DNA from: a virus
Length of the DNA stretch: 64,000 nucleotides
Virus record (IMG/VR): IMGVR_UViG_3300048686_000449
Span: 11,899-75,898 of that record
Strand: one strand, 5' to 3'
The notes under the pieces were generated by a model. It was not told the origin of the DNA. It saw only the letters and a program-made list of their open reading frames with translations, and did not search any database. Below, in pieces: positions 1 to 57,834 of the stretch (position 1 is its first letter; each line of letters opens with the position of its first letter). The position numbers were made by a program, and so were the translations under genes.

Positions 1-90
1 AAGGCTAATCGAATAATCGCTGCCATTGAGAGACCATAGTGCGCCGAAAGCTGTAACAGCTTTTCATAGTCGGACACTTCCATCAATGTA

Positions 91-609
91 TCAAACTTTT
101 TGACGAGTCGTGCCACGCTTCTTCGTCTCCTTCACTGAAGTGTCAACTTTGGTTGCTTCCTTCAGATCAAAGGGTAATGTTGGGAAGGCTTCCTTAGCAA
201 CAGATGCCGTCAATCCATGAATACACTCTGGCACTTTCTTTTGTAGCAGGGCGCACAAAATCTTGGCTTCTTCTGGATGTAGATAGGACAGAATCTGCGT
301 CAAAATTGTTTGCTCTTTCTTTTCAGTTAACTTTGATACCCGTCTTGGATGCCCGTCTATAAAGATATATAACCGTGAAAGCTCTCCGTGTAAGTAGGTG
401 TCGTTCATTCCCGCTGGCATCAATGATGGTTTATATTTGGGAATTTGCGAAATATCAAACTTCACGGTAGGATTGAACGCGGCATTCAGGAATTCGGGCA
501 ACCGTGATCCGCCGCGCGACATTGCAAAGTTTCTCAAAATTATGATTTTCTCTTCTCGCGTCTTTGCAGACTGAAATTGTTCAAACACTTCATGATAGAG
601 TTGATACAT
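91..609 (-). CDS. conserved hypothetical T4-like phage protein
   Basis: ORF. ATG at 609 is preceded by GGAGG. Resembles a family conserved in cyanophage-like myoviruses. Confidence 0.6.
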   Translation of the reverse strand: MYQLYHEVFEQFQSAKTREEKIIILRNFAMSRGGSRLPEFLNAAFNPTVKFDISQIPKYKPSLMPAGMNDTYLHGELSRLYIFIDGHPRRVSKLTEKKEQTILTQILSYLHPEEAKILCALLQKKVPECIHGLTASVAKEAFPTLPFDLKEATKVDTSVKETKKRGTTRQKV

Positions 610-657
610 ATGACCTCCTAATAATATATTCACACAACCTACTGATATTTAGTGACC

Positions 658-2658
658 TCATTTACTCGTCGCCACATAGACGCCCGTCCAATTTGAAGGG
701 CATCCTGCAGATAATCGCTGTGTCATGATGGTATAATACTCTTTCAGTGTAGGATTTGATTGCGATAATCCATCAGCTAAGTGAAGAGCTTTTTTCCATT
801 CTCCCGAATAATACAAGTCTAAAAATTGTTGATGGACTGTATCATGTTCAGCTACGGTGTAAATATGAACACCCTGCTTCTTACCTTTCACAGCTAAACA
901 ATCAAGTTCTGTTACTGAGATTCGCGATTTCACTATCTCAGCAGTCTGTGGCCCAAGAATCAACTTGACCCCATATGATTTGCTCTGACCTTCCAATCGT
1001 GAGGCGAGATTGACCGCATCACCTAGACAGGTATAATCAAATCGTTGAGTGCTGCCCATGTTCCCGACAATCACAGATCCTGTATTGATGCCGATACCCA
1101 TGCCAAATGGTGGAACGCCTTCCGCAGCAATCTCCTCATTGAAACGATCCAAATCATGAAGCATTGTTTGGGCTGTCAGAACGGCATGATACGCATGATC
1201 CGCATCATTCAACGGTGCATTCCAGAAGGCCATCTGGGCATCTCCGATGTACTTATCTAATGTTCCCTGTTGAACGAGAATAGTTTCAGTCATGGCTGTC
1301 ATATACCGATTCATAATCTGCGTCAGCCCTTCAACATTCTCTCCATAATGTTCTGAGATCGTGGTGAATCCGCGTACATCAGTAAACATAATACTCAGTT
1401 CTCGTCGTTCACCACCCAAACGTAACAGCGCAGGATTTTGTTGGAGCTTCTCCACCATTGCAGGTGACAGATAAGTTCCAAATTGTTTTTTGATTTGTTG
1501 CTTTTGCAGAAACTCAGAGAGGAACTTGACGCCATACGCATGTAACGCAATCAGAATAAATCCTGCATCCAACATCGTAACATCAAGCAGCCATTTCTCT
1601 TTCGTATAGAACCAATAGGTGAATGCTGGCGCACTCAAAATCAGAAGAACTGTAAACCCGAGTCCCACATAGGTCCAGCGACTGAGCGCAATAATTAGAA
1701 GACCCCCCAGACACAGCAATGATAATTCAAGTCCCATGGCCCAATCGGGTCGTTGAATGGAGATGCCATTGATCAGAGTACCAATGACCGCTGCTTGGAC
1801 ATCGTGCGGCCACACTGATCCAAGACTGGTCGGCACAGGATTGGCCACGCCTGTCGCAGTGACACCCAGAATGACAATGGCACCGTTGAGATCGGGAATG
1901 GGATCAAGAAAAGAGTGTGTTTGAGCCGTCTGTGTCCAATCAATCCACACTCGTCCGAGTTCATCAGTCGCAATCGGTCCAAATTGAGGAATACGCAACT
2001 TCTCAATCCCGCCCGAGAATAACTTGACCTGAATCGTTGTATCATTAGCTAAGAGACGAAGAGTTTCCAGTGGCACCGAAGGATACAACACGCCCTGCGC
2101 ACTCGCGACTAATGGCATTCGACGAACCACACCATCAAGTTCGGGTAATGTATGAATCGTACCGACTCCAGCGGCAGCCGTTTCTAACAGAGGAATATTT
2201 GAGAGCATACCTGGATAAGTGATGAGTTGTGTGAGATATTCGGGATTGAGCACTACGCTTCCAGGGTAACGTGGTACATTCTTTTGTTCTTTGGCTGGCG
2301 CATTCACTAAGAGCACGGGATAACGATCCATCGTTTTTGCAAATAATTCATCACCATGATGTGGATCTGGGTCGGGCATCAAAATGGTGCTGATAACAAG
2401 TCCAGCACCGTGTGCATAGAGTTGTTGAATATACTCTGCATACACTGAGCGATTTAATGGATATTGCCCATAGCGAGTAATTGTCTGATCATCGATTTGA
2501 ATTGTATGAATCTGCGTGGCGACAGCAGGACCCGATGTCACCAATGTATCAAAGTATCGTAATCTGACTGATTCTAAAAATGATGGATCAGATTCACGAA
2601 CAGCAACCATTAAACATAATGTGAGAATTGCCCACCAGGGTGTTAACCAACGAATCAT
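658..2658 (-). CDS. CHASE2-domain class III adenylate cyclase
   Basis: N-terminal TM, CHASE2-like periplasmic region, three TM helices, then cyclase motifs MFTDVRGFT, DKYIGDAQMAFW and FDYTCLGDAVNLASRLE. K and D specificity residues indicate ATP. Confidence 0.92.
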   Translation of the reverse strand: MIRWLTPWWAILTLCLMVAVRESDPSFLESVRLRYFDTLVTSGPAVATQIHTIQIDDQTITRYGQYPLNRSVYAEYIQQLYAHGAGLVISTILMPDPDPHHGDELFAKTMDRYPVLLVNAPAKEQKNVPRYPGSVVLNPEYLTQLITYPGMLSNIPLLETAAAGVGTIHTLPELDGVVRRMPLVASAQGVLYPSVPLETLRLLANDTTIQVKLFSGGIEKLRIPQFGPIATDELGRVWIDWTQTAQTHSFLDPIPDLNGAIVILGVTATGVANPVPTSLGSVWPHDVQAAVIGTLINGISIQRPDWAMGLELSLLCLGGLLIIALSRWTYVGLGFTVLLILSAPAFTYWFYTKEKWLLDVTMLDAGFILIALHAYGVKFLSEFLQKQQIKKQFGTYLSPAMVEKLQQNPALLRLGGERRELSIMFTDVRGFTTISEHYGENVEGLTQIMNRYMTAMTETILVQQGTLDKYIGDAQMAFWNAPLNDADHAYHAVLTAQTMLHDLDRFNEEIAAEGVPPFGMGIGINTGSVIVGNMGSTQRFDYTCLGDAVNLASRLEGQSKSYGVKLILGPQTAEIVKSRISVTELDCLAVKGKKQGVHIYTVAEHDTVHQQFLDLYYSGEWKKALHLADGLSQSNPTLKEYYTIMTQRLSAGCPSNWTGVYVATSK

Positions 2659-2659
2659 A

Positions 2660-3334
2660 TTAGTGTTGAGTCACACTCGCCGAACAACCCGCAGGATTCA
2701 AACAATTTTGTGTTAACGAATAGGATTTATTCGTTGATCCACTCTGCGAGAGATTCAGTGAAGATGACCCCCCTCCATTTGTAAGTTCAATGATAGCTGT
2801 ATGCGATCCGCTCCCCGTTTGTGAGGAGGTCACGCTATTACCATTACCATTGAGTGTGACTGATAATGAATGATTCCCCGCATCTTGTTGGACCGCAGAG
2901 ATCATATTTGTATTACCATTAATGTTGAGAGTTTGAATTTTTGTCTTGGCATCTTTTTGCAACGCTGATACTTGATTGGCATTTCCTAAAATTGTTGTAT
3001 TGAGAATATGCCCCGAATCAACATCTCCCATATTAAATTGTGTGACATTGAGAATATTATCCACCCCATTTATATAAATGTTTGATGTGTGACCACCACT
3101 GTCTAACGCACCACCTTGGGTGACGTTAACACTATTTCCTTGATTATATAACTGAACCGACGCAGTTGACGAAGGAGTTTCTTGTGTTATGGTGATTATA
3201 TTGTTATCGCCGACTTGATCCACATACACTGAATTCTCTGCGAGTGCAGGAGGATTAACTATAAAAAGAATCGTCAAGATCCAGTTAGTTAGACTGACGA
3301 ATCGTAATTGTCGTGCTGCCGCCCTGATTAACAC
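2660..3334 (-). CDS. curlin-repeat protein (CsgB/CsgA-like), secreted
   Basis: Repeats of N-x-V/I-x-I/V-x-Q-x-G-x-x-N. Likely GTG start at 3334 after GGAG, giving a signal peptide ending PALA. C-terminal C-x5-C. Confidence 0.75.
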   Translation of the reverse strand: MLIRAAARQLRFVSLTNWILTILFIVNPPALAENSVYVDQVGDNNIITITQETPSSTASVQLYNQGNSVNVTQGGALDSGGHTSNIYINGVDNILNVTQFNMGDVDSGHILNTTILGNANQVSALQKDAKTKIQTLNINGNTNMISAVQQDAGNHSLSVTLNGNGNSVTSSQTGSGSHTAIIELTNGGGSSSLNLSQSGSTNKSYSLTQNCLNPAGCSASVTQH

Positions 3335-4418
3335 GGTTTGTAATCTCCACGCTACCTTGGATTTGAGTGATGGTACTATTTTGATTTGTAGGAGTCTGAA
3401 TACATTGAATATTAGACCCATCATTTCGGCATAATTCTACACTTGGTTCATCAATCGCCACAACAACTCCAGAAGATTTCACATAATCTGGTAAGAGTCC
3501 ACCTTTGGTACGAGCTAATGCATCCGCTTTTGCTGCGAGTTGTTCATTGATTTGATCAAGAATATTTTGTAAAAAGTCTTGATCTAATGAATTCTGTTCC
3601 AGCTTATTGACATACATTTTTTGAATTTCTTTATTTGATTGATCGAATGCATTCACGAGTCCTGTGGAAGCCAAAAAGTCAATATCTAATGCACCTTTGT
3701 TGAGATTCAATCGTGCGTCTTTTTTATCCTGTAGTTCCTGTGGTGGAGCAAATAGAATCATATTATGAATCGCATCTTCGCTGAGATTGAGAATGACGGG
3801 TGATTTGGGTTTTGTTTCTTTAGTCTCCACACGTGTGGCTTGAAATGCTTGATTCATTACAACAATACCTTCCGATGTCTCTACAGAGATTTCACCCACC
3901 TTACAATCACGTTCAATTGAGATCCAGCCACGTGGACAACTGGGTAACAAGATAATCGTGCTGCGTCCCAATTCATCAACTGATGCAGTAAAATCCGTCC
4001 CGCGCACACCGATTGTTGCTGTGGGAGTCGTAATCGCTACAGCTTGAGGATTGCGTTTCGCAATTGCTCCAGAGGCATATCGTACTGTTCCAAGTGCCAC
4101 TTTCATCGCTAATTTTCCACCAGTAGATGATTTTGGATCATAGACAAACTCATCAATGACTAATCGTGAATTATCAGTTACCTGTACTTTAGTTTGATCG
4201 TCAAAGACAATTCCGATTTTTCCTTGCGCAGTACGAATCGCATCCATCATCTCAACTCCACTACCCTTCTTCCCCTCTAAAAATTGGGTTGAGCGTTTAA
4301 TTTGCGCGGGTTGATTGATTTGTTCTGTAATCGTTCCGATGGACGCACTGACCATCACTGGAACAGTCAGTGCGATCCACAGATTAATTATGAGAATTGA
4401 TACTAAGTGTATTCCCAT
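3285..4418 (-). CDS. FecR-domain protein, secreted/periplasmic
   Basis: Signal peptide. FecR motifs DAIRT, F.DQT.V.V..NS.L.IDEF and ITTPTATIGVRGTDF. Confidence 0.85.
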   Translation of the reverse strand: MGIHLVSILIINLWIALTVPVMVSASIGTITEQINQPAQIKRSTQFLEGKKGSGVEMMDAIRTAQGKIGIVFDDQTKVQVTDNSRLVIDEFVYDPKSSTGGKLAMKVALGTVRYASGAIAKRNPQAVAITTPTATIGVRGTDFTASVDELGRSTIILLPSCPRGWISIERDCKVGEISVETSEGIVVMNQAFQATRVETKETKPKSPVILNLSEDAIHNMILFAPPQELQDKKDARLNLNKGALDIDFLASTGLVNAFDQSNKEIQKMYVNKLEQNSLDQDFLQNILDQINEQLAAKADALARTKGGLLPDYVKSSGVVVAIDEPSVELCRNDGSNIQCIQTPTNQNSTITQIQGSVEITNRVNQGGSTTITIRQSN

Positions 4419-5157
4419 TTCCAACCGATGTAATAGCGACATGGGTATCAATAGTGCCGCTTTGTGTAATGGTTGCGCTGTTACTAGATCCCGTCACACT
4501 TAATTCAGTCGTATGACCTGTCGTTCCTGCGGTGCCGCTTTGCGTTAAAGAGACGGTATTACTCGCACCCACTGTCGTGATGGTACTGGTACCTTTATTA
4601 CTTGTGAGATTAAGTGTTGCGCTGTTACTCGCACCACCCGTCATTGATGTAGTATTAGTAATATTCGTTCCTGCAATAGTGGCTGAAAGTGTTTGATTAT
4701 TACCACCCGTTTGTGTAGCAGTTAACGAGTTACTGGTACCAGTCATTGTCACGTTAGTTGAAGCATAGTTTCCTCCTTGCGTGATGGCTACTGTATTCTC
4801 ATCAGAGATAGAGGATCCATCGTTGTTCATATTAATGGTAGCTGAACCGTTACTTCCTGTAACTTCATATGTCATTGAGTTTGAATCACCCAACCCACCA
4901 TTAATACCTAAATTCAGTTGGTTTCCTGTACCCGTTTGGGTCACAGAAACTGTTGTATCTGATCCATAAATTTTAGCTTTGGTATCACTAGCGGCTCCAA
5001 TTCCCTTGACTGTATTTGTTGAACCATTCTGTTCAATCGTAATCGTCGAGGTCGATCCGATTTGATCAATATAAACTCCATTATCTCCAGCCCACGCTGT
5101 CACTCCAATCATACATGATAACAGCAGCGTGAAGATAAAATGACTGAAACGTTTCAT
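4384..5157 (-). CDS. curlin-repeat protein (CsgA/CsgB-like), secreted
   Basis: Signal peptide ending AWA. Thr/Ser/Gly/Asn-rich repeats such as NTVAITQGGN, NTVSLTQSGT and NSATITQSGT. Directly downstream of csgG. Confidence 0.8.
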   Translation of the reverse strand: MKRFSHFIFTLLLSCMIGVTAWAGDNGVYIDQIGSTSTITIEQNGSTNTVKGIGAASDTKAKIYGSDTTVSVTQTGTGNQLNLGINGGLGDSNSMTYEVTGSNGSATINMNNDGSSISDENTVAITQGGNYASTNVTMTGTSNSLTATQTGGNNQTLSATIAGTNITNTTSMTGGASNSATLNLTSNKGTSTITTVGASNTVSLTQSGTAGTTGHTTELSVTGSSNSATITQSGTIDTHVAITSVGNGNTLSINSHN

Positions 5158-5981
5158 TGATCCTCCTGTGGGGTAATTGAATCAGGGGGATTCCCCCAAA
5201 TTCCCTTTCGTGTTCCTTCCTTAATAAGTTCTAATACAGCAGCTTCAATAGTATATTTGACGGCAAATGTACCAGGCTCATTGACAGTCAATCCGATTTC
5301 TCCTTCAAATGCTTTTGTTCCTTGATCAAAAAACTTTAATGCAGTCGCATGATCGGCCACTGAGAGTAAGTTTTTTTGTACATTTACTGATGCTAACACT
5401 TTCCCTGTTGACACTGATACAACACGCAAACTGACGGTCACGACATCTTCTGAAAATTGTGTAGATCCGCCGACCCCTAAGTATCTCGCCCCAATCCCAC
5501 CACTTTTGGTCGTTGTATCATAACCAATGACTCCACCTTCAATTAAAATTCCAGCAAATAATAATGGTTGAAGTGGTTTTGAACTAGTCCCTTCATAGGC
5601 ATCGCGCATCTGACGAATCAATTGACGTTCTCGTGTCAATCCATCGACGCCAATACGTTCTAATACTGTGAACCATTCACCTCTTCCTACATCTTGCAGA
5701 GCTTTAATTAAAAAGACTTCAGCTCCTTGGGTCAATGCAGTGCTAAATGATGCCATGTTATTGGAGGGTCGTCGTTGTCCCGTTTTATCTAAAAATGAAT
5801 ACACCGCCACCGTAATTGGTTTGCCCATTGGTGGACCAGTGATACTATCAAACTCGCGTTGTAATAAATTTTTCGTCACTTCTGGTTTTTGGGGTAATTG
5901 ATCGACCAAGACTGCGCATCCTGTCATCAACCAGAGATGCAGGATAATCATCAGCGTGAGTATAATTGAGAGAATATTCAT
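5154..5981 (-). CDS. csgG: curli secretion channel lipoprotein CsgG
   Basis: Lipobox LMTGC. Motifs VAVYSFLDKTGQR, FSTALTQG, WFTVLER, LTRERQLIR, EGGVIGYD and GARYLGVG. Confidence 0.93.
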   Translation of the reverse strand: MNILSIILTLMIILHLWLMTGCAVLVDQLPQKPEVTKNLLQREFDSITGPPMGKPITVAVYSFLDKTGQRRPSNNMASFSTALTQGAEVFLIKALQDVGRGEWFTVLERIGVDGLTRERQLIRQMRDAYEGTSSKPLQPLLFAGILIEGGVIGYDTTTKSGGIGARYLGVGGSTQFSEDVVTVSLRVVSVSTGKVLASVNVQKNLLSVADHATALKFFDQGTKAFEGEIGLTVNEPGTFAVKYTIEAAVLELIKEGTRKGIWGNPPDSITPQEDQ

Positions 5982-6433
5982 TAGAATTGAAAACTTCCCA
6001 ATGGAATCGTGACCACCGTGCGAGTCCCATTGGTGTCAATCGTAGTAAGTTGAATATTTGTGCCATCTTTAATCCACGAAATCGTATTTCCCTCAAACAC
6101 CAAGGTGCCTTGATTTGTCCCACCATTGGCAAACATGGCTGTAGCCAAATTTTGGGAGATTTGTGCGTAAATACGACTTTCCAGGTTATTGAGAAACTTG
6201 GAGAGATTGGTATTGTTGGATTCAGCTTTGGCTTTATCCAAGGCTGCTTGAATCTCAGCTTTGAGTTTATCACGACGAGTAGCTTCAAGATTCTCAATCG
6301 TCAGGGTATGACTGGAGTACCCTATACCATTGAATGCAGGACTAAGAAACTTGAAATCTTCAATAGGAGCAGCAAAAGAGAAATAAGGAAAGAGTAGCAA
6401 GAGAAGTATAACAATAGTGCGGGGGGATAACAT
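5981..6433 (-). CDS. csgF: curli assembly protein CsgF
   Basis: Signal peptide followed by F.F.SPAF.G. Also FLNNLESRI and C-terminal GTRTVVTIP. Adjacent to csgG. Confidence 0.85.
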   Translation of the reverse strand: MLSPRTIVILLLLLFPYFSFAAPIEDFKFLSPAFNGIGYSSHTLTIENLEATRRDKLKAEIQAALDKAKAESNNTNLSKFLNNLESRIYAQISQNLATAMFANGGTNQGTLVFEGNTISWIKDGTNIQLTTIDTNGTRTVVTIPLGSFQF

Positions 6434-6479
6434 CGAGAACTCCTTATGTTATCATCATATTTGAAAACCTCACGCTCGG

Positions 6480-6731
6480 TTATTGCTCATTGTGTTTTTG
6501 TTTTTTCAATTCTAAAACAACATTGACTTTTTGATGAAGACGAATCAAATCATTATCAAGCATTCTAACTCGGTCAATCAACCCAACTAATGTCTTTTTC
6601 GTTTCATTAAGTACGGGTTCAATAGTTTCGGTCACCCAAGTCCAGACATACCAAATCATATAGAACATCCCACCTGCTGCCACGATGGGGAATCCATATT
6701 TATTGATAAGTTCGACTGGATTAGTTTCCAT
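6480..6731 (-). CDS. small membrane protein with coiled-coil tail (YvrJ/holin-like)
   Basis: GFPIVAA TM helix followed by a coiled coil. Paralog of the upstream ORF. Confidence 0.6.
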   Translation of the reverse strand: METNPVELINKYGFPIVAAGGMFYMIWYVWTWVTETIEPVLNETKKTLVGLIDRVRMLDNDLIRLHQKVNVVLELKKQKHNEQ

Positions 6732-7009
6732 TAGTCTTTCCGAGCATCTTCTTTTCCATCAGATCGCGATAAACGATCTAGATCTGGTTGTAAGCGTAAC
6801 GCATGGGAAATTAATGTATCAATTCGAACAATATCAGAGTTCATCGTTTTGACGCGGTTATCAAGTGCCATAATGATGCCTCGCATACTCTCAATCGTTT
6901 GCTGAACGCCTTCAAGAAGAATCTTGATTGTCAAGAAAACAAAGTATCCAGCCCCACATGCAGCAGCAATTGGGAATCCAACTTCCAGTAATGTCAGAAA
7001 CAGTTCCAT
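6731..7009 (-). CDS. small membrane protein with coiled-coil tail (YvrJ/holin-like)
   Basis: GFPIAAA TM helix followed by a coiled coil. Its stop abuts the next start. Confidence 0.6.
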   Translation of the reverse strand: MELFLTLLEVGFPIAAACGAGYFVFLTIKILLEGVQQTIESMRGIIMALDNRVKTMNSDIVRIDTLISHALRLQPDLDRLSRSDGKEDARKD

Positions 7010-7014
7010 AAGAG

Positions 7015-7022
7015 TATTTATA
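7015..7022 (-). promoter_or_regulatory. T4-type late promoter TATAAATA driving the curli operon
   Basis: Exact TATAAATA 5 nt upstream of the ATG at 7009. Confidence 0.7.
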
Positions 7023-7040
7023 GTCTACTAGAACTACCAA

Positions 7041-7220
7041 TTACCGCACAGATTCGCTTCCGTAAGGAATTGATGGTTCTCCCTCGCAAAGTCCGCTGTG
7101 TACACAGAGATGAGATTCCAGAGATTCATCTTCATCTTTCATCACGAAACAATGAAGAACAATCAAAAGCACAAATGATATGACAATCACACCTGAAATT
7201 AATAGTAGTTTTTTAATCAT
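7041..7220 (-). CDS. small membrane protein
   Basis: Hydrophobic N-terminus. AGGAG Shine-Dalgarno. Confidence 0.5.
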   Translation of the reverse strand: MIKKLLLISGVIVISFVLLIVLHCFVMKDEDESLESHLCVHSGLCEGEPSIPYGSESVR

Positions 7221-7228
7221 AAATTCTC

Positions 7229-8077
7229 CTAAAATTCTTGAATACATTCTACTAACCTGGTACATTTACAAGCAATCAAATATGACAAGAACTCTTGCAT
7301 GGTGGCGGGTTTGATGCGTTCAAAGGCTTCCTGAATCTGTGTTGCTACAGAGTCAGGAATCTTAGATAAATCAATTAATTGTTCATTTCGTTTATAATTA
7401 CGCAACAGATCAGAGGAGAGCGCACTGACAGGCTGTTCCATCATCTCTGCTAAACGCTTTTGTGTCATTGGCTTCTGTCTGGTTCCCTTCACAAACGTAT
7501 CATCGGCTGAGAGAATATTAGGAATCCCATCACCCTTATCACCCGTCAGAATGAGTTCCTTGAGATATTCTTGAGGGTGTGTTTTACCAATCATTGTCTT
7601 TTTAGCGGGGGAATACTGAACCACTCGCGTACCATATGTATGAAGCTGAATAAAGTCTTTGTCAGATGAGACAATCAGAATTGGTTCATGAGGGGCATAC
7701 TTTATGGTTAATATTCCAATGATGTCATCAGCTTCAACTCCATCTAAACGAATCGTTCGATAGGGAAGTGACGCAGGGAACTCAGTCTTCAATGGTTCCA
7801 GAAGTTCAAACACTTTAGACCAATCTTGGCCCGATGATTCACGCTGTTCCTTGCGCTTATACTTGTAATGCGGAAACACATTTTTTCTCCAATAATTGCG
7901 ACCATCCATCGCAATGACTACCTCGGGTCCAAAGGTGCCTTTATGACGGGCGGTGATCGCTCTGATACTATTGAGTATCAAATGTCGGAGAAGATCCGTG
8001 CTCGGCGTCTCTCTCAGAGAGGTCGTCATTTCTAATGCGCAGGAAAATGCCACTCCACTATAATCAAATAGAATCAT
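7229..8077 (-). CDS. rnh: T4-like RNase H (5'-3' exonuclease, FEN family)
   Basis: Motifs ILFDYS, YWRK..FPHYK..R, EADDIIG, SSDKDFIQL and GDKGDGIPN. Confidence 0.93.
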   Translation of the reverse strand: MILFDYSGVAFSCALEMTTSLRETPSTDLLRHLILNSIRAITARHKGTFGPEVVIAMDGRNYWRKNVFPHYKYKRKEQRESSGQDWSKVFELLEPLKTEFPASLPYRTIRLDGVEADDIIGILTIKYAPHEPILIVSSDKDFIQLHTYGTRVVQYSPAKKTMIGKTHPQEYLKELILTGDKGDGIPNILSADDTFVKGTRQKPMTQKRLAEMMEQPVSALSSDLLRNYKRNEQLIDLSKIPDSVATQIQEAFERIKPATMQEFLSYLIACKCTRLVECIQEF

Positions 8078-8337
8078 AACGAAGACTCCTTCTTATCAGA
8101 TACAGGTTTGAATGGGGTAGCTTCTTTGCGCATTTCTCGTTCAATGCGCGAACGTAACACCAAAAACACATGATCAGGCACCTTCTGCCCACAATCACGA
8201 ATGTTGATCAGAATATCGACTGCTTCAGTAGCAGAACAATTATACCAACTATTCTCCATGCCATCATGGATATTATACCCGTAGTCAGTGGCGTAGGCAA
8301 AAACATCACAATTATTGGACCAACGACAGAGTGCCAT
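8074..8337 (-). CDS. hypothetical protein
   Basis: ORF tightly coupled to its neighbours. Confidence 0.5.
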   Translation of the reverse strand: MALCRWSNNCDVFAYATDYGYNIHDGMENSWYNCSATEAVDILINIRDCGQKVPDHVFLVLRSRIEREMRKEATPFKPVSDKKESSL

Positions 8338-8339
8338 TC

Positions 8340-8957
8340 TCAAACCTCACAATGCGTTTCTTTCCACTTCAAAGACTTTTCTAATTCTTTATCAAAAATC
8401 ATCAGGAACCGATGTTTTCGAGTACGATCTCTCCATTCACCTTCCAATCCCTTGACAGAACCACGTGAATGCTTGGTGCCATCCGCATAGTAGAAATCTT
8501 TCTTAGGATCGGTGAGTCCATAATATTTGAAATTACATGCACGATAAATCGTTCCAGTATGGCGAGAACTATCCGCATAACTCAGAATCACTCGAACATC
8601 CGATTCACTACGAAATTTACGAATACAACGACTCACGAACCATGAGGTGATATTGTATTCCGTCTGCTGTAATTCTGGATGAACACAGAGACGTGAGAGT
8701 TCATAGAGTCCTTCTTGTTGATCTCGTCGAAGACCAAAAGCCCCGACCGCTATTTCTGGCACGGGAATTTTTGTAAAGATACAGACTCCTAGACATTCTC
8801 CCACGTGTAGAATATCAGTGACGGCATTTCGATATAAGCCATATGAGTAGGGACTAAACTTGAAATCTTTCGATTCATCTTTGAGGTAATGGAAGGTGGT
8901 CAGTAGACCCTTGACCTCAGACTTTTTCACATTATCAATAAAGAACTCAGACTTCAT
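8340..8957 (-). CDS. Mom-like GNAT-fold DNA modification protein
   Basis: Motifs FHYL, ELSRLC, SWFVSRC, ILSYAD and HTGTIYRACNF. Confidence 0.75.
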   Translation of the reverse strand: MKSEFFIDNVKKSEVKGLLTTFHYLKDESKDFKFSPYSYGLYRNAVTDILHVGECLGVCIFTKIPVPEIAVGAFGLRRDQQEGLYELSRLCVHPELQQTEYNITSWFVSRCIRKFRSESDVRVILSYADSSRHTGTIYRACNFKYYGLTDPKKDFYYADGTKHSRGSVKGLEGEWRDRTRKHRFLMIFDKELEKSLKWKETHCEV

Positions 8958-8958
8958 A

Positions 8959-9510
8959 CTACTCTTCGCACGAATAGGTCTGCGTTTGCAATTTGATTTC
9001 CGTAGGCCACTGCGGGTTCTTCACGAATGAACGTTCACACATCAACAGATGATTTGTGGGTTGTACGGTATAACGACCATTTTCGAGAGCCACAAAGGAG
9101 AACTCTTTGGCTTGTTCAGGTCGAGAGGACCATCCATCATATAGTGGAGCTACAGTGAACAGATAGCGACCTGGATATTCATGTACATTAGCTTGCACCA
9201 GACACACACTGTCTTTTAAGAACGCATACTCAAGTACAGCAAAGTGATAATCATAACAATCCCATGTCTGAGCATCTTTCGGCGTCCACACCCACTCAGG
9301 GTCTGCTTTCCAGGCTAATGCATGAATAGGCACATTCCGATACACGGCCCCATTCTGAAACAAGACATTACACCCCCAGACTCGTCCAGGATACGAGACT
9401 AATCCAAACCAGATGCACGGCACAAATCCCTGTGCTTCTTTATAGGTGAACGAGGAATCCACCAGTGCGTATTGATGCACTGGAAGATCACCAATGAACG
9501 TGTATTCCAT
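8959..9510 (-). CDS. hypothetical phage protein
   Basis: 183-aa ORF in operon context. Confidence 0.6.
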   Translation of the reverse strand: MEYTFIGDLPVHQYALVDSSFTYKEAQGFVPCIWFGLVSYPGRVWGCNVLFQNGAVYRNVPIHALAWKADPEWVWTPKDAQTWDCYDYHFAVLEYAFLKDSVCLVQANVHEYPGRYLFTVAPLYDGWSSRPEQAKEFSFVALENGRYTVQPTNHLLMCERSFVKNPQWPTEIKLQTQTYSCEE

Positions 9511-43732: not shown

Positions 43733-43824
43733 ATTATAAATAGATGTGGGTCGCGATGCTACTAACATCCACCCACTCTAACACCATAGCTTTAGAAGGG
43801 AGTGTCAGCATGTCTATTTATAAT
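43733..43824 (+). repeat. conserved structured leader element, copy 2
   Basis: Perfect 12-bp inverted repeat ATTATAAATAGA/TCTATTTATAAT enclosing TGTGGGTCGCG...CACCCACTCTAAC...GAGTGTCAGCATG. Confidence 0.85.
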
Positions 43825-48388: not shown

Positions 48389-48396
48389 TATTTATA
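48389..48396 (-). promoter_or_regulatory. T4-type late promoter TATAAATA
   Basis: Exact motif upstream of the AAGGAG SD of the ORF at 48367. Confidence 0.7.
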
Positions 48397-57328: not shown

Positions 57329-57410
57329 ACCTGACGCTCCTGGTTATATAACAGCGTTAGAGTGGGTGGGAATTCGTAGTTCCGCGACCCACATAATATA
57401 TCTATTTATA
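57317..57410 (-). repeat. conserved structured leader element, copy 3
   Basis: Minus strand TATAAATAGATAT...ATGTGGGTCGCGGAA..TTCCCACCCACTCTAACGCT...GGAGCGTCAGGTATGTCTATTTAT. Confidence 0.85.
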
Positions 57411-57441: not shown

Positions 57442-57834
57442 TCATTTGATTATCCCACCTGTATCAGTGATCCTTTTAAGATCTGCCAATTGTTCAGGAG
57501 TGAGCAGAGGAAGAATCTGACGAGATTTGGCGTCTGAATACCCATAAGCGAGTTTCACACATTCCAAATCGTCAGGAGACTCGGCTTTACTCCACTTGAC
57601 ATAGGGTCGTTTCCGACCCCTCACTGTATTTATAAGATAAGAAAATTGTAATTTCTTATCCAGGTGGTGGCGACGATTCATTTCGTTGGCAAACAACACA
57701 CAATCCTGATGATAGGACAAACTCCGATTGGTGAGAAAAGGTACATAGGATTTCTCACTTATATCATCAACGATCAGATCTTTCTTCCCATAACTAATCT
57801 GATTAACATAATCAAAGGGATTGATTTTATCCAT
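57442..57834 (-). CDS. gp62: clamp loader small subunit (T4 gp62)
   Basis: YVPFL.NRSLSY..D...ANEMN and YGYS..K...L. Confidence 0.9.
   Translation of the reverse strand: MDKINPFDYVNQISYGKKDLIVDDISEKSYVPFLTNRSLSYHQDCVLFANEMNRRHHLDKKLQFSYLINTVRGRKRPYVKWSKAESPDDLECVKLAYGYSDAKSRQILPLLTPEQLADLKRITDTGGIIK

What the first reader, a model, noticed from the sequence alone, without database searches (positions are those of the whole stretch)
658..7022. Late-expressed phage operon joining curli secretion (CsgF, CsgG, two curlins) to a FecR protein and a CHASE2 adenylate cyclase
Seen: eight co-oriented, mostly abutting or overlapping genes follow a single TATAAATA late promoter. The order is two small TM paralogs, csgF, csgG, curlin A, FecR-domain protein, curlin B and CHASE2 cyclase. 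All six larger products carry signal peptides, a lipobox or TM segments, and the cyclase keeps its catalytic and ATP-specificity residues. Known: CsgG/CsgF form the outer-membrane amyloid secretion pore, FecR domains relay signals across the periplasm, and CHASE2 cyclases are inner-membrane sensors. As I recall, csgF/csgG have been reported in a few aquatic T4-like phages, so the pore alone is not new. No csgE, csgC or csgD is present. Inference: the phage builds a complete trans-envelope device (surface fibre or pore to periplasmic FecR to cAMP output). It could sense contact or superinfection, aggregate infected cells, or time lysis.
Basis: partly seen in the sequence, partly recalled or inferred. 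Interest (0 to 1): 0.88.

Follow-up and report, generated by a model that had tools for sequence, protein, structure and literature searches.

The report
Freshwater phage curli–FecR–cyclase gene block
A T4-like phage from lake water carries an intact copy of the already published "viral curli" gene block (outer-membrane pore, two fibre proteins, an exported FecR-fold protein, a membrane adenylate cyclase and two tiny membrane proteins); the block is real and conserved, but what it does in an infected cell has never been tested.

Summary
Eight co-oriented minus-strand genes (658-7009) follow one TATAAATA box (7015-7022). In order they are two paralogous small membrane proteins, CsgF, CsgG, curlin A, a FecR-fold protein, curlin B and a CHASE2 class III adenylate cyclase with all catalytic residues.

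The kind is not new. Wittmers et al. 2022 (PMC9599517) described this same order, including FecR and the cyclase, in marine SAR11 phages. GenBank annotates it in HTVC008M and Melnitz. This scan has already noted it 367 times in at least 237 genomes.

What this window adds:
- It is a freshwater (lake) member.
- RNA-library contigs cover every gene of the block.
- The published "histidine kinase" label for the two small genes is not supported.
- The FecR protein lacks an anti-sigma domain. Its nearest bacterial relatives are N-terminal domains of RTX proteins that lie beside type I secretion genes; one of the four loci examined also has a CHASE2 sensor.
- One bacterial copy of the block exists, in a Henriciella MAG.

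Best reading: the block exports curli-type fibres and pairs them with a FecR/CHASE2 envelope sensor that makes cAMP. Function is untested. I class it as a new member of a known kind, of low to moderate interest.

The parts
7015..7022 (-). T4-type late-promoter-like box TATAAATA, 5 nt upstream of the tmA ATG, with no Shine-Dalgarno between them
   Evidence: The motif is enriched at the head of the block in related loci: 18 of 44 against 0.8% background. This is a consensus match only; the transcription start is not mapped.
6731..7009 (-). tmA: 92-aa single-pass membrane protein with a coiled-coil tail and a conserved C-terminus (...DRIARADGKxDARRD in relatives)
   Evidence: phrog_18771 2e-29 and no Pfam family. 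Hydrophobic segment at residues 10-32. Alignment. Among 50,697 phage records it is found only in HTVC008M and Melnitz, the same phages that hold CsgG.
6480..6731 (-). tmB: 83-aa paralogue of tmA (shared GFPI..AA.G.GYF helix and LDNDLIRL-type helix)
   Evidence: phrog_18771 1e-27. Alignments. There is no conserved His and no HisKA, HATPase or HAMP hit in 31 members at E<=1.
5981..6433 (-). CsgF homologue with signal peptide; AGGAG Shine-Dalgarno upstream
   Evidence: Pfam CsgF 7e-12; phrog_35372 5e-51; N-terminal hydrophobic segment.
5154..5981 (-). CsgG outer-membrane lipoprotein channel subunit (lipobox Cys22)
   Evidence: Pfam CsgG 5e-48. E. coli CsgG structures match at 2e-48 over residues 10-263. 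C22 is invariant in 14 viral CsgGs. By my own reading of the alignment (E. coli residue numbering recalled from memory), the Phe of the E. coli Tyr/Asn/Phe constriction is kept while Tyr and Asn are replaced.
4384..5157 (-). Curlin A: T/S/G/N-rich curlin-repeat protein with signal peptide
   Evidence: Pfam Curlin_rpt 3e-8, 34 bits against a 20.7-bit cut-off. Repeats of the type x-S-x-T-Q-x-G.
3285..4418 (-). Exported FecR-fold protein. It has a signal peptide, a beta domain at residues 28-210, a low-confidence linker of about 100 residues, and a small C-terminal beta domain ending in a conserved ...I.I.Q.N tail
   Evidence: Pfam FecR 9e-10; phrog_37870 6e-134. AF2 model has pLDDT 83. PupR periplasmic domain Z 15.5, 4m0h Z 14. 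Tail conservation. The start was chosen at ATG 4418, which gives a plausible signal peptide; the ORF is open from TTG 4451.
2660..3334 (-). Curlin B: second curlin-like beta-solenoid protein with an invariant C-terminal Cys pair. Probable start is GTG 3334 behind a GGAG box, overlapping the FecR 3' end by 50 nt
   Evidence: Curlin_rpt 5.7e-4, 0.5 bit under the cut-off. BLASTP to curlin A 4e-10. AF2 pLDDT 86 and pTM 0.78 with 16 strands. Best fold match is Pontibacter CsgA 8c50 at Z 18.8, with the E. coli CsgA fibril at Z 13.2, tied with other beta-helices. C211 and C217 are invariant in 28 sequences. Start.
658..2658 (-). CHASE2 class III adenylate cyclase: N-terminal membrane helix, periplasmic CHASE2, membrane segments at about 307-349, cytoplasmic cyclase domain
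   Evidence: Pfam CHASE2 1.5e-35 and Guanylate_cyc 4e-19. PDB: Cya2-derived cyclase 3e-36, P. aeruginosa CyaB 8e-30. Catalytic D/D, K/T and N/R are present and conserved.

Best explanation
This is a freshwater member of the published viral type VIII secretion (curli) module of aquatic phages. It sits at the edge of the replication region of an uncultured T4-like phage.

Shown:
- All eight genes are intact, tightly packed, co-oriented and headed by a late-promoter-like box.
- The same gene set and order recur in most of 80 related viral loci and in the cultured phages HTVC008M and Melnitz.
- Contigs of lake RNA libraries cover every gene and bridge five of the seven gene junctions.

Inferred mechanism: late in infection all eight products are targeted to the envelope, the six larger ones by signal peptide, lipobox or membrane segments. 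CsgG (lipoprotein) and CsgF build the outer-membrane channel. Curlins A and B are exported through it and stack into beta-solenoid fibres on the infected cell. The exported FecR-fold protein and the CHASE2 domain of the cyclase form a periplasmic sensor pair that converts the state of the channel, fibre or envelope into cAMP. The two small membrane proteins are accessory inner-membrane subunits, not kinases.

The likely pay-off is a changed cell surface (aggregation, 'sibling capture', or exclusion of other phages) with a feedback signal to the cytoplasm.

My confidence by step: membership of the published module 0.95; fibre export 0.6; FecR-CHASE2 as a sensor pair 0.5; the ecological role is open.
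For: Domain identities.

Synteny: tmA-tmB-CsgF-CsgG-curlin-FecR-curlin-cyclase in viral contigs and in Melnitz and HTVC008M.

Catalytic residues are conserved in 30 viral cyclases.

Curlin B models as a beta-solenoid whose best fold match is a CsgA.

The FecR fold matches PupR at Z 15.5.

tmA occurs only in phage records that also hold CsgG.

The late-promoter motif is enriched at the head of the block.

RNA-library contigs at 99% identity or more lie over every gene and bridge the junctions tmA/tmB, tmB/CsgF, CsgF/CsgG, curlin A/FecR and FecR/curlin B.

Published description and metatranscriptome detection of the marine module: PMC9599517.

FecR-domain gene next to CHASE2 sensor genes in bacteria: the Burkholderia operon in PMC5192318, and a CHASE2-SpoIIE gene two genes upstream of a FecR-RTX gene in locus L172. 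PMC5498481 studies a FecR-domain protein (SMc02177) among the targets of the S. meliloti cAMP regulator Clr and uses a CyaD1 lacking CHASE2 that makes cAMP constitutively.
Against: No experiment exists for any step. Buchholz et al. saw no clumping of Melnitz-infected cells (PMC9004378).

No CsgE-like adaptor, no cAMP receptor and no transcription factor is in the record, which is 46% complete.

Curlin B falls 0.5 bit below Pfam's cut-off, and its fold match is tied with unrelated beta-helices.

RNA-library contigs can contain carried-over DNA and cannot show a single transcript.

Only the Phe of the E. coli CsgG constriction triad is kept (my reading), so channel properties may differ.

The tm genes are missing within 8 kb in the window's closest relatives L004-L010, L012, L019, L020 and L023.
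Confidence: 0.55

Rival explanations
1. Tether or retention model. The FecR-fold protein is not only a sensor partner but a physical anchor. Its folded N-terminal domain stays in the periplasm, its ~100-residue flexible linker threads through CsgG, and its C-terminal curlin-like strands join the fibre. Load on the fibre is then relayed to CHASE2 and cAMP. This would be analogous to the N-terminal retention module of LapA/MpIBP RTX adhesins lodged in their TolC-like pore.
For: Model residues 24-120 match PDB 5ix9, the MpIBP anchoring domain: Foldseek TM 0.73 on the target, VIA Z 7.2. The profile search also lists 5ix9, at E 0.29.

The nearest alphaproteobacterial relatives of the FecR domain are N-termini of 900-1230-aa proteins. 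Two of the four scanned carry RTX repeats. They lie beside an ABC exporter (L175), a TolC-type gene (L173) or a CHASE2-SpoIIE sensor gene (L172).

The model has a low-confidence linker at 215-310 and a confident C-terminal beta unit.

The tail weakly resembles a curlin repeat pair (hhalign E 0.0026 against a control of 0.55).

The LapA retention module was modelled on 5ix9 (bioRxiv 10.1101/198937).
Against: All structural and sequence signals are below the usual thresholds: Z 7.2 is in the range of chance for this tool, and hhalign probability is 12%. The C-terminal domain has no clear fold match (Z about 3.5). CsgG secretion signals known from E. coli are N-terminal (from my knowledge of the E. 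coli system, not tested here). Nothing shows that the linker enters the pore.
Confidence: 0.15
2. Pore-only model. CsgG/CsgF act as a gated outer-membrane pore (secretin- or pinholin-like) that times lysis, and the other genes are accessory or irrelevant (Buchholz et al. 2022).
For: Proposed from Melnitz structure models and gene neighbourhood (PMC9004378). The CsgG constriction differs from E. coli. tmB has a short, weak match to a holin PHROG (18 residues, E 4.5e-5).
Against: That paper assumed csgA/csgB were absent, yet two curlin genes with export signals are conserved in the block. An outer-membrane pore does not depolarise the inner membrane. FecR and the cyclase are co-conserved and remain unexplained. 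tmA/tmB occur only with the block, whereas every phage needs lysis genes.
Confidence: 0.1
3. Uptake or iron-signalling model. The open channel imports nutrients or siderophores, and FecR works as in ferric-citrate cell-surface signalling.
For: Suggested as one option in PMC7029224 and PMC9599517. The FecR domain fold is genuine.
Against: The protein begins with a signal peptide and has no N-terminal anti-sigma domain. No Sigma70_r2 domain is in the record. No TonB-dependent transducer lies in the block. The output domain next door is a cyclase, not a sigma factor.
Confidence: 0.05
4. Two functions that merely travel together: a fibre-export unit and an unrelated cAMP host-takeover enzyme with its FecR partner.
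For: In some podophage and myophage versions the second curlin and the cyclase are missing (PMC9599517). In several large contigs the cyclase and tm genes sit apart or inverted. FecR-CHASE2 pairs exist in bacteria without curli genes.
Against: The fixed order with overlapping reading frames (FecR overlaps both curlins) argues for co-translation and co-selection. The block moved as a unit between phage families (PMC9599517). All block-bearing CsgGs lie on one side of a well-supported branch.
Confidence: 0.12

Closest known systems
Viral T8SS (curli) region of pelagiphages with FecR and adenylate cyclase (Wittmers et al. 2022, PMC9599517; Zaragoza-Solas et al. 2020, PMC7029224); annotated copies in Pelagibacter phage HTVC008M (KC465899, 7181-13807) and Methylophilales phage Melnitz (MZ577098, 50118-56876)
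   Same: Same genes in the same order: one or two small upstream genes, CsgF, CsgG, curlin, FecR, curlin, cyclase. Same place between the replication and structural regions of a T4-like genome. Protein identities to the window are 35-55%.
   Different: This copy comes from lake water, not the sea. The 2020 paper reported the curli operon missing from the freshwater SAR11-type myophages it recovered. The window has 42% G+C against 34-37% for the HTVC008M and Melnitz loci. Its DNA polymerase is only about 50% identical to any cultured phage. It falls in a separate, well-supported CsgG clade of 23 viral rows. The published 'histidine kinase' label for the small genes is not borne out here.
Canonical bacterial curli system (E. 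coli csgBAC / csgDEFG)
   Same: CsgG lipoprotein channel (2e-48 to solved E. coli CsgG), CsgF, and curlin-repeat subunits with Sec signals.
   Different: No CsgE, CsgC or CsgD was found. A FecR-fold protein, a CHASE2 cyclase and two small membrane proteins are added. Two of the three constriction residues are changed (my reading). The nearest bacterial CsgGs (Alphaproteobacteria, 42-54% identity) lack FecR and the cyclase, and form the opposite side of a branch with 97% support.
FecR-domain protein plus CHASE2 sensor pairs in bacteria (Burkholderia LysM-FecR / CHASE2 histidine-kinase operon, PMC5192318; S. meliloti CHASE2 cyclase CyaD1 and the FecR-domain Clr target SMc02177, PMC5498481)
   Same: An exported FecR-domain protein is encoded beside, or studied in the same pathway as, a membrane sensor whose periplasmic part is CHASE2. 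For CyaD1 the output is a class III adenylate cyclase, and a construct lacking CHASE2 makes cAMP constitutively.
   Different: Those systems have no curli genes. Their FecR proteins carry other extra domains (LysM) or none. The signal sensed by CHASE2 is unknown in every case.
N-terminal retention module of LapA/MpIBP-type RTX adhesins (PDB 5ix9; bioRxiv 10.1101/198937)
   Same: A small folded periplasmic beta domain is followed by a flexible segment and an extracellular fibre-like part. There is a weak structural and profile match to residues 21-120 of the FecR protein. Bacterial relatives of this FecR domain head large proteins, two of four with RTX repeats, beside T1SS genes.
   Different: Those adhesins use type I secretion and a TolC-like pore, not CsgG, and are regulated by LapG/LapD and c-di-GMP. 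The match is below significance thresholds.

Membership tests
Viral T8SS (curli)-FecR-cyclase module of aquatic phages (PMC9599517) | Adjacent csgF and csgG in a phage genome | tested here: met
   Pfam 7e-12 and 5e-48. Phage context is shown by gp43 polymerase, gp41 helicase, gp46, RNase H and RNR.
Viral T8SS (curli)-FecR-cyclase module of aquatic phages (PMC9599517) | Curlin-repeat gene after csgG, then a FecR-domain gene, then (often) a second curlin gene and an adenylate cyclase | tested here: met
   The order is the same as in Melnitz and HTVC008M and in most of 80 viral loci.
Viral T8SS (curli)-FecR-cyclase module of aquatic phages (PMC9599517) | One or two small genes directly upstream (published as 'histidine kinase') | tested here: met
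   Two phrog_18771 paralogues lie upstream. Their presence is met, but the kinase identity is not (see the histidine kinase rows).
Viral T8SS (curli)-FecR-cyclase module of aquatic phages (PMC9599517) | Marine SAR11 (or OM43) host | tested here: not met
   The DNA is held at 91% or more of sampled words by 14 runs labelled lake water, freshwater or aquatic metagenome, from at least 9 study codes. The host is unknown. This is a habitat trait, not a structural one, so it does not bar membership.
Canonical bacterial curli system | CsgG, CsgF and curlin-repeat subunits | tested here: met
Canonical bacterial curli system | CsgE periplasmic adaptor, CsgC chaperone, CsgD regulator | tested here: not met
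   No match in the 75.9-kb record. The record is about 46% complete, so absence from the whole phage is not proven.
Canonical bacterial curli system | Secreted subunits form amyloid fibres | not testable with these tools
   Only a beta-solenoid model for curlin B is available.
FecR/PupR-type anti-sigma regulators (cell-surface signalling) | Periplasmic FecR-domain fold | tested here: met
   PupR 6ovm_R Z 15.5, rmsd 2.6 over 134 residues; 4m0h Z 14. Pfam FecR 9e-10.
FecR/PupR-type anti-sigma regulators (cell-surface signalling) | N-terminal cytoplasmic anti-sigma domain followed by a membrane helix | tested here: not met
   The protein opens with a signal-peptide-like helix (residues 3-18), and the beta domain starts at residue 28.
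FecR/PupR-type anti-sigma regulators (cell-surface signalling) | Partner ECF sigma factor and TonB-dependent transducer | tested here: inconclusive
   No Sigma70_r2 domain in the record, and no such genes in the block. The transducer family was not searched, and the record is incomplete.
Class III adenylate cyclase with CHASE2 sensor | CHASE2 domain between membrane helices, and a class III catalytic domain with two metal Asp, substrate Lys plus Thr/Asp, and transition-state Asn and Arg | tested here: met
   The window has Lys and Thr where the guanylate cyclase Cya2 (2w01) has Glu and Gly (alignment).
Class III adenylate cyclase with CHASE2 sensor | Makes cAMP | not testable with these tools
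   Needs an enzyme assay or cyaA complementation.
Histidine kinase (label given to the small upstream genes in PMC9599517) | HisKA/DHp helix with a conserved phospho-acceptor His | tested here: not met
   No His column is conserved in 46 sequences or in alignment A5.
Histidine kinase (label given to the small upstream genes in PMC9599517) | HATPase_c catalytic domain | tested here: not met
   The proteins are 83-115 aa. No HisKA, HATPase_c or HAMP hit was found in 31 members at E<=1. The PDB profile search gives only generic coiled coils.
LapA/MpIBP retention module | N-terminal anchoring-domain fold | tested here: inconclusive
   5ix9: Foldseek E 0.02 and TM 0.73 on the target; VIA Z 7.2; profile E 0.29.

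The most novel reading that the evidence does not exclude
The FecR-fold protein is a trans-outer-membrane tether. Its folded head, which resembles a retention module, stays in the periplasm against the CHASE2 domain. Its linker passes through CsgG, and its curlin-like tail is built into the fibre. A phage-made surface fibre would then work as a mechanical or contact sensor that reports to the cytoplasm as cAMP. The design would be borrowed from RTX-adhesin retention systems and re-plumbed onto a curli pore.
Probability: 0.15. Interest if true: 0.7.

Novelty: new member of a known kind. Interest (0 to 1): 0.3.

Why it matters
The block makes up about 8% of some phage genomes. It was found at all 65 ocean stations surveyed (PMC9599517), is now seen in lakes, and recurs in hundreds of windows of this scan. 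Even so, no one has shown what it does.

It gives an infected cell an entire surface-fibre export system that the published hosts (SAR11, OM43) lack, wired to a second-messenger enzyme. Showing whether it causes aggregation, blocks rival phages or senses the envelope would bear on three questions: how abundant plankton phages find hosts in dilute water, what the still-unknown signal of CHASE2 sensors is, and how FecR-fold domains work outside iron signalling.

For this window the added value is modest:
- a freshwater lineage;
- RNA-library cover of all eight genes;
- a correction of the 'histidine kinase' label;
- the link of the FecR domain to RTX-type protein heads.

Tried and rejected
- Near-identical DNA search of the block in 50,697 phage records gave no match.
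- Foldseek of the curlin B model against the PDB gave nothing at E<=0.001, only weak beta-helix rows. VIA-align then gave CsgA as top hit, tied with other beta-helices.
- I first took the 5ix9 hit to concern the C-terminal domain of FecR. VIA showed that it aligns to residues 24-120 instead. The C-terminal domain has only Ig-like matches at Z about 3.5.
- ESM Atlas for tmA returned only viral hypothetical clusters.
- Pfam at E<=1 on 31 tm proteins, and a PDB profile search, gave noise and generic coiled coils.
- Sigma-70 promoter and intrinsic terminator scans of 1-7600 gave counts equal to shuffled sequence, so they say nothing about internal starts or stops.
- A Melnitz gp33-like late coactivator was not found in the record. 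This is uninformative for an incomplete record.
- Search for a phage-type, ~370-aa FecR protein in bacteria: 1 of 101 genomes of the Henriciella MAG's family (that MAG itself) and 1 of 401 Alphaproteobacteria. These are 'not found in those searched', not 'absent'.
- In the RNA-library contigs, 7200-9000 (RNase H side) is almost uncovered while the block is covered. Since the runs were picked with the block as bait and are contigs, I draw no conclusion about relative expression.
- Host identification was not attempted beyond noting that one short module-bearing contig is binned with a Polynucleobacter MAG, which is not evidence.

Full report
**1. Observation**

All eight genes are present at the stated place, on the minus strand. 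Read 5' to 3', successive genes are separated by -1, +46, -1, -4, -35, -50 and +1 nt. A TATAAATA box lies at 7015-7022, 5 nt before the first ATG, with no Shine-Dalgarno between them.

Pfam supports each assignment:
- CsgF 7e-12
- CsgG 5e-48
- Curlin_rpt 3e-8 for the first repeat protein
- FecR 9e-10
- CHASE2 1.5e-35 and Guanylate_cyc 4e-19
- 5.7e-4 (20.2 bits against a 20.7-bit cut-off) for the second repeat protein

The two small proteins are paralogues. Both hit phrog_18771 at about 1e-28.

I adjust two starts. FecR most likely begins at ATG 4418. Curlin B most likely begins at GTG 3334, behind a GGAG box; this gives a basic n-region and an ...ALA/EN cleavage-type site.

**2. The cyclase**

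The catalytic domain aligns to solved class III cyclases: a Cya2-derived construct at 3e-36 and P. aeruginosa CyaB at 8e-30.

Both metal aspartates (D427, D473), the substrate lysine (K469) and the transition-state arginine (R554) are invariant in 30 distinct viral homologues. The second substrate position is T, S or D. The asparagine is N in 23 and S in 7.

Where the guanylate cyclase Cya2 has Glu and Gly, the window has Lys and Thr. By the established rules for class III enzymes this predicts ATP as substrate. Activity itself is untested.

**3. The curlins**

Curlin A passes Pfam's threshold. Curlin B is similar to curlin A (BLASTP 4e-10). With a 28-sequence alignment it models at pLDDT 86 and pTM 0.78 as 16 regularly spaced strands.

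The full-library structural comparison puts the Pontibacter curli subunit CsgA first (Z 18.8) and lists the E. coli CsgA fibril at Z 13.2. SufD-type beta-helices score within one Z unit, and Foldseek found nothing significant. So curlin B is a beta-solenoid of curlin type by sequence kinship. The fold match alone would not prove it.

Curlin B homologues share an invariant Cys pair near the C-terminus.

**4. The FecR protein**

The model (pLDDT 83) has four parts:
- a signal-peptide-like helix;
- a confident beta domain at residues 28-210;
- a low-confidence linker of about 100 residues;
- a confident six-strand C-terminal unit.

Residues 56-221 match the periplasmic domain of the anti-sigma regulator PupR (Z 15.5) and BDI_1681 (Z 14). 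There is no N-terminal anti-sigma domain, and the record holds no Sigma70_r2 domain. It has the FecR fold but is not a FecR-type anti-sigma factor.

The C-terminal tail (...G..T.I.I.Q.N) is conserved across 50 homologues. It aligns weakly to a curlin repeat pair: hhalign E 0.0026 and probability 12%, against a control E of 0.55 versus CsgG. I treat the 'curlin-like tail' as a lead only.

**5. The small membrane proteins**

Each has one N-terminal hydrophobic helix (GFPI..AA.G.GYF) and a coiled-coil tail. Wittmers et al. call the genes in this position histidine kinases.

Here they are 83-115 residues long and have no conserved histidine. In 31 members they give no HisKA, HATPase_c or HAMP match even at E<=1. 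PDB profile hits are generic coiled coils. The kinase label is not supported.

Among 50,697 phage records, tmA is found only in HTVC008M and Melnitz, exactly the phages that have CsgG. That argues the pair belongs to the block rather than to general lysis.

**6. Context, habitat and expression**

The window is the replication region of a T4-like phage: gp43 polymerase, gp41 helicase, gp46, ligase, RNase H and ribonucleotide reductase. The polymerase is only about 50% identical to cyanomyophages. The record is a 75.9-kb linear IMG/VR contig, about 46% complete.

The block is held almost completely (91-100% of sampled words) by 14 runs labelled lake water, freshwater or aquatic metagenome, from at least 9 study codes. 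Some of these may be the source sample.

Four lake metatranscriptome libraries contain contigs at 99% identity or more over every gene. These contigs bridge five of the seven gene junctions. This is compatible with co-transcription. It does not prove it, because contigs cannot show single transcripts and DNA carry-over cannot be excluded.

**7. Relatives**

CsgG relatives were confirmed in 164 viral stretches. In most of the 80 loci fetched, the gene order tmA-tmB-CsgF-CsgG-curlin-FecR-curlin-cyclase is kept. In several contigs, mostly large ones (up to 344 kb), the tm genes sit downstream on the other strand. In the window's closest relatives the tm genes are not within 8 kb.

The FecR protein has more than 7,000 90%-identity clusters of homologues in metagenomes.

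The late-promoter core ATAAATA lies within 40 nt of the tmA start in 18 of 44 distinct loci. The figure is 0 of 43-60 for tmB, CsgG, curlin A and FecR, 0.8% for random windows and 5% for other ORFs. In several loci it directly follows a terminator-like hairpin. Together with the T4-type context, this supports late expression from the head of the block.

**8. Prior art**

- Zaragoza-Solas et al. 2020 reported csgF/csgG with neighbouring unknown genes in SAR11 myophages and proposed 'sibling capture'.
- Buchholz et al. 2022 proposed a lysis-timing pore for Melnitz, stated that csgA/B were missing, and saw no clumping.
- Wittmers et al. 2022 described the full block (HK, CsgF, CsgG, CsgA/B, FecR, second CsgA/B, adenylate cyclase) in podo- and myophages. 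They detected it at all 65 GOV2 stations and in metatranscriptomes, and inferred transfer between phage families.
- GenBank annotates the same order in Melnitz and HTVC008M.
- This scan has 367 notes on the same block in at least 237 genomes, with follow-ups reaching the same verdict.

The kind is therefore known.

**9. Bacterial side**

The nearest bacterial CsgGs are alphaproteobacterial (42-54% identity), and nearly all lack FecR, the cyclase and the tm genes. In a quick maximum-likelihood tree, the 70 such bacterial CsgGs form one side of a branch with 97% SH-aLRT support. All block-bearing CsgGs lie on the other side.

Short MAG contigs with the whole block are most simply mis-binned phage. 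Three of them, for example, sit in one 'Rhodobacteraceae' bin.

One case looks truly bacterial. A 397-kb contig of a Henriciella MAG has CsgF, CsgG, a 504-aa repeat protein, FecR and a CHASE2 cyclase, set among a TonB-dependent receptor, an FAD oxidase, an FAA hydrolase and a dioxygenase. G+C dips locally from about 53% to 48%. Its CsgG sits on the viral side of the tree on a long branch, so the direction of transfer is open.

With the FecR protein as query, only this MAG matched as a ~370-aa protein, among 101 genomes of its family and 401 Alphaproteobacteria sampled. The seven other alphaproteobacterial matches are FecR domains near the N-terminus of open frames of 595-1954 residues. In the four such loci I examined, the proteins are 903-1230 aa. 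Two carry RTX repeats, and they lie beside an ABC exporter, a TolC-type gene or a CHASE2-SpoIIE sensor.

Published bacterial examples also place FecR-domain genes next to CHASE2 sensors.

**10. Mechanism**

The best-supported reading is a curli-type fibre export unit joined to a FecR/CHASE2 periplasmic sensor pair with cAMP output.

A more specific and more novel variant is that FecR acts as a retention-type tether through CsgG. Several weak signals support it:
- the 5ix9 match to residues 24-120 (TM 0.73 on the target, Z 7.2, profile E 0.29);
- the RTX-protein relatives;
- the long floppy linker;
- the curlin-like tail.

The analogy is to the LapA retention module, which was modelled on 5ix9.

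The lysis-pore and uptake readings fit fewer of the parts. No cAMP receptor was found in the record, so the target of the signal is unknown.

**11. Verdict**

This is a new freshwater member of a known, published kind. Interest is low to moderate, because the biology is unsolved but the discovery is not new.

Noticed in passing
L085:6466-12489 (Henriciella sp. MAG, contig CBFICP010000001.1, 397 kb): A bacterial chromosome-sized contig carries CsgF-CsgG-(504-aa repeat protein)-FecR-CHASE2 cyclase in the phage order, flanked by ordinary bacterial genes. There are no tm genes, and G+C dips locally. It is the only such case among the bacterial genomes sampled.
   Followed up: partly
L172:5230-11335, L173:3451-10751, L175:5155-9959, L177:6070-13428: In Alphaproteobacteria the nearest relatives of the phage FecR domain head 900-1230-aa proteins, two of the four with RTX repeats. 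They lie next to an ABC exporter, a TolC-type gene, a GAF-PAS cyclase or a CHASE2-SpoIIE phosphatase.
   Followed up: partly
window 2660-2730 (C-terminus of curlin B) and alignment A3: Two cysteines five residues apart near the C-terminus of curlin B are invariant in all 28 homologues aligned. E. coli curlins, as I recall, have no cysteines. In the window's clade the FecR C-terminal domain also has a Cys pair.
   Followed up: no
L084, L086, L096 (FZLS01 contigs of 'Rhodobacteraceae bacterium Water_Bin34'): One MAG holds three different short contigs, each with the phage-type block. These are most likely phage contigs mis-binned into a bacterial genome.
   Followed up: no
L016, L017, L025, L026, L029, L033, L034, L037 (source viral contigs of 23-344 kb): In these contigs, several of them very large, the tmA/tmB genes lie downstream of the cyclase on the opposite strand instead of heading the block. 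In L018, L030 and L038 the cyclase itself is inverted.
   Followed up: no
window 7041-7265 (-): A 74-aa ORF with one hydrophobic segment lies between RNase H and the block. It has no PHROG family.
   Followed up: no
window 91-633 (-): A DUF6433 protein gene follows the cyclase after 24 nt on the same strand, and may belong to the same transcript.
   Followed up: no
L060, L062, L067, L075, L077 (upstream of tmA): A G+C-rich hairpin with a T-run is followed at once by TATAAATA and, 5 nt later, the tmA ATG. The window has the same 5-nt spacing, which hints at a leaderless or near-leaderless late mRNA.
   Followed up: partly
OR851715.1 (phage collection): A 1,499-bp record named 'Salmonella phage S.Kent 1-2-1' consists largely of a csgG-like sequence (44% identity to the window's CsgG) and has no annotation.
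   Followed up: no
window 43735-43742, 43815-43822, 48389-48396, 57403-57410, 57627-57634: These are the other five TATAAATA boxes of the window.
   Followed up: no
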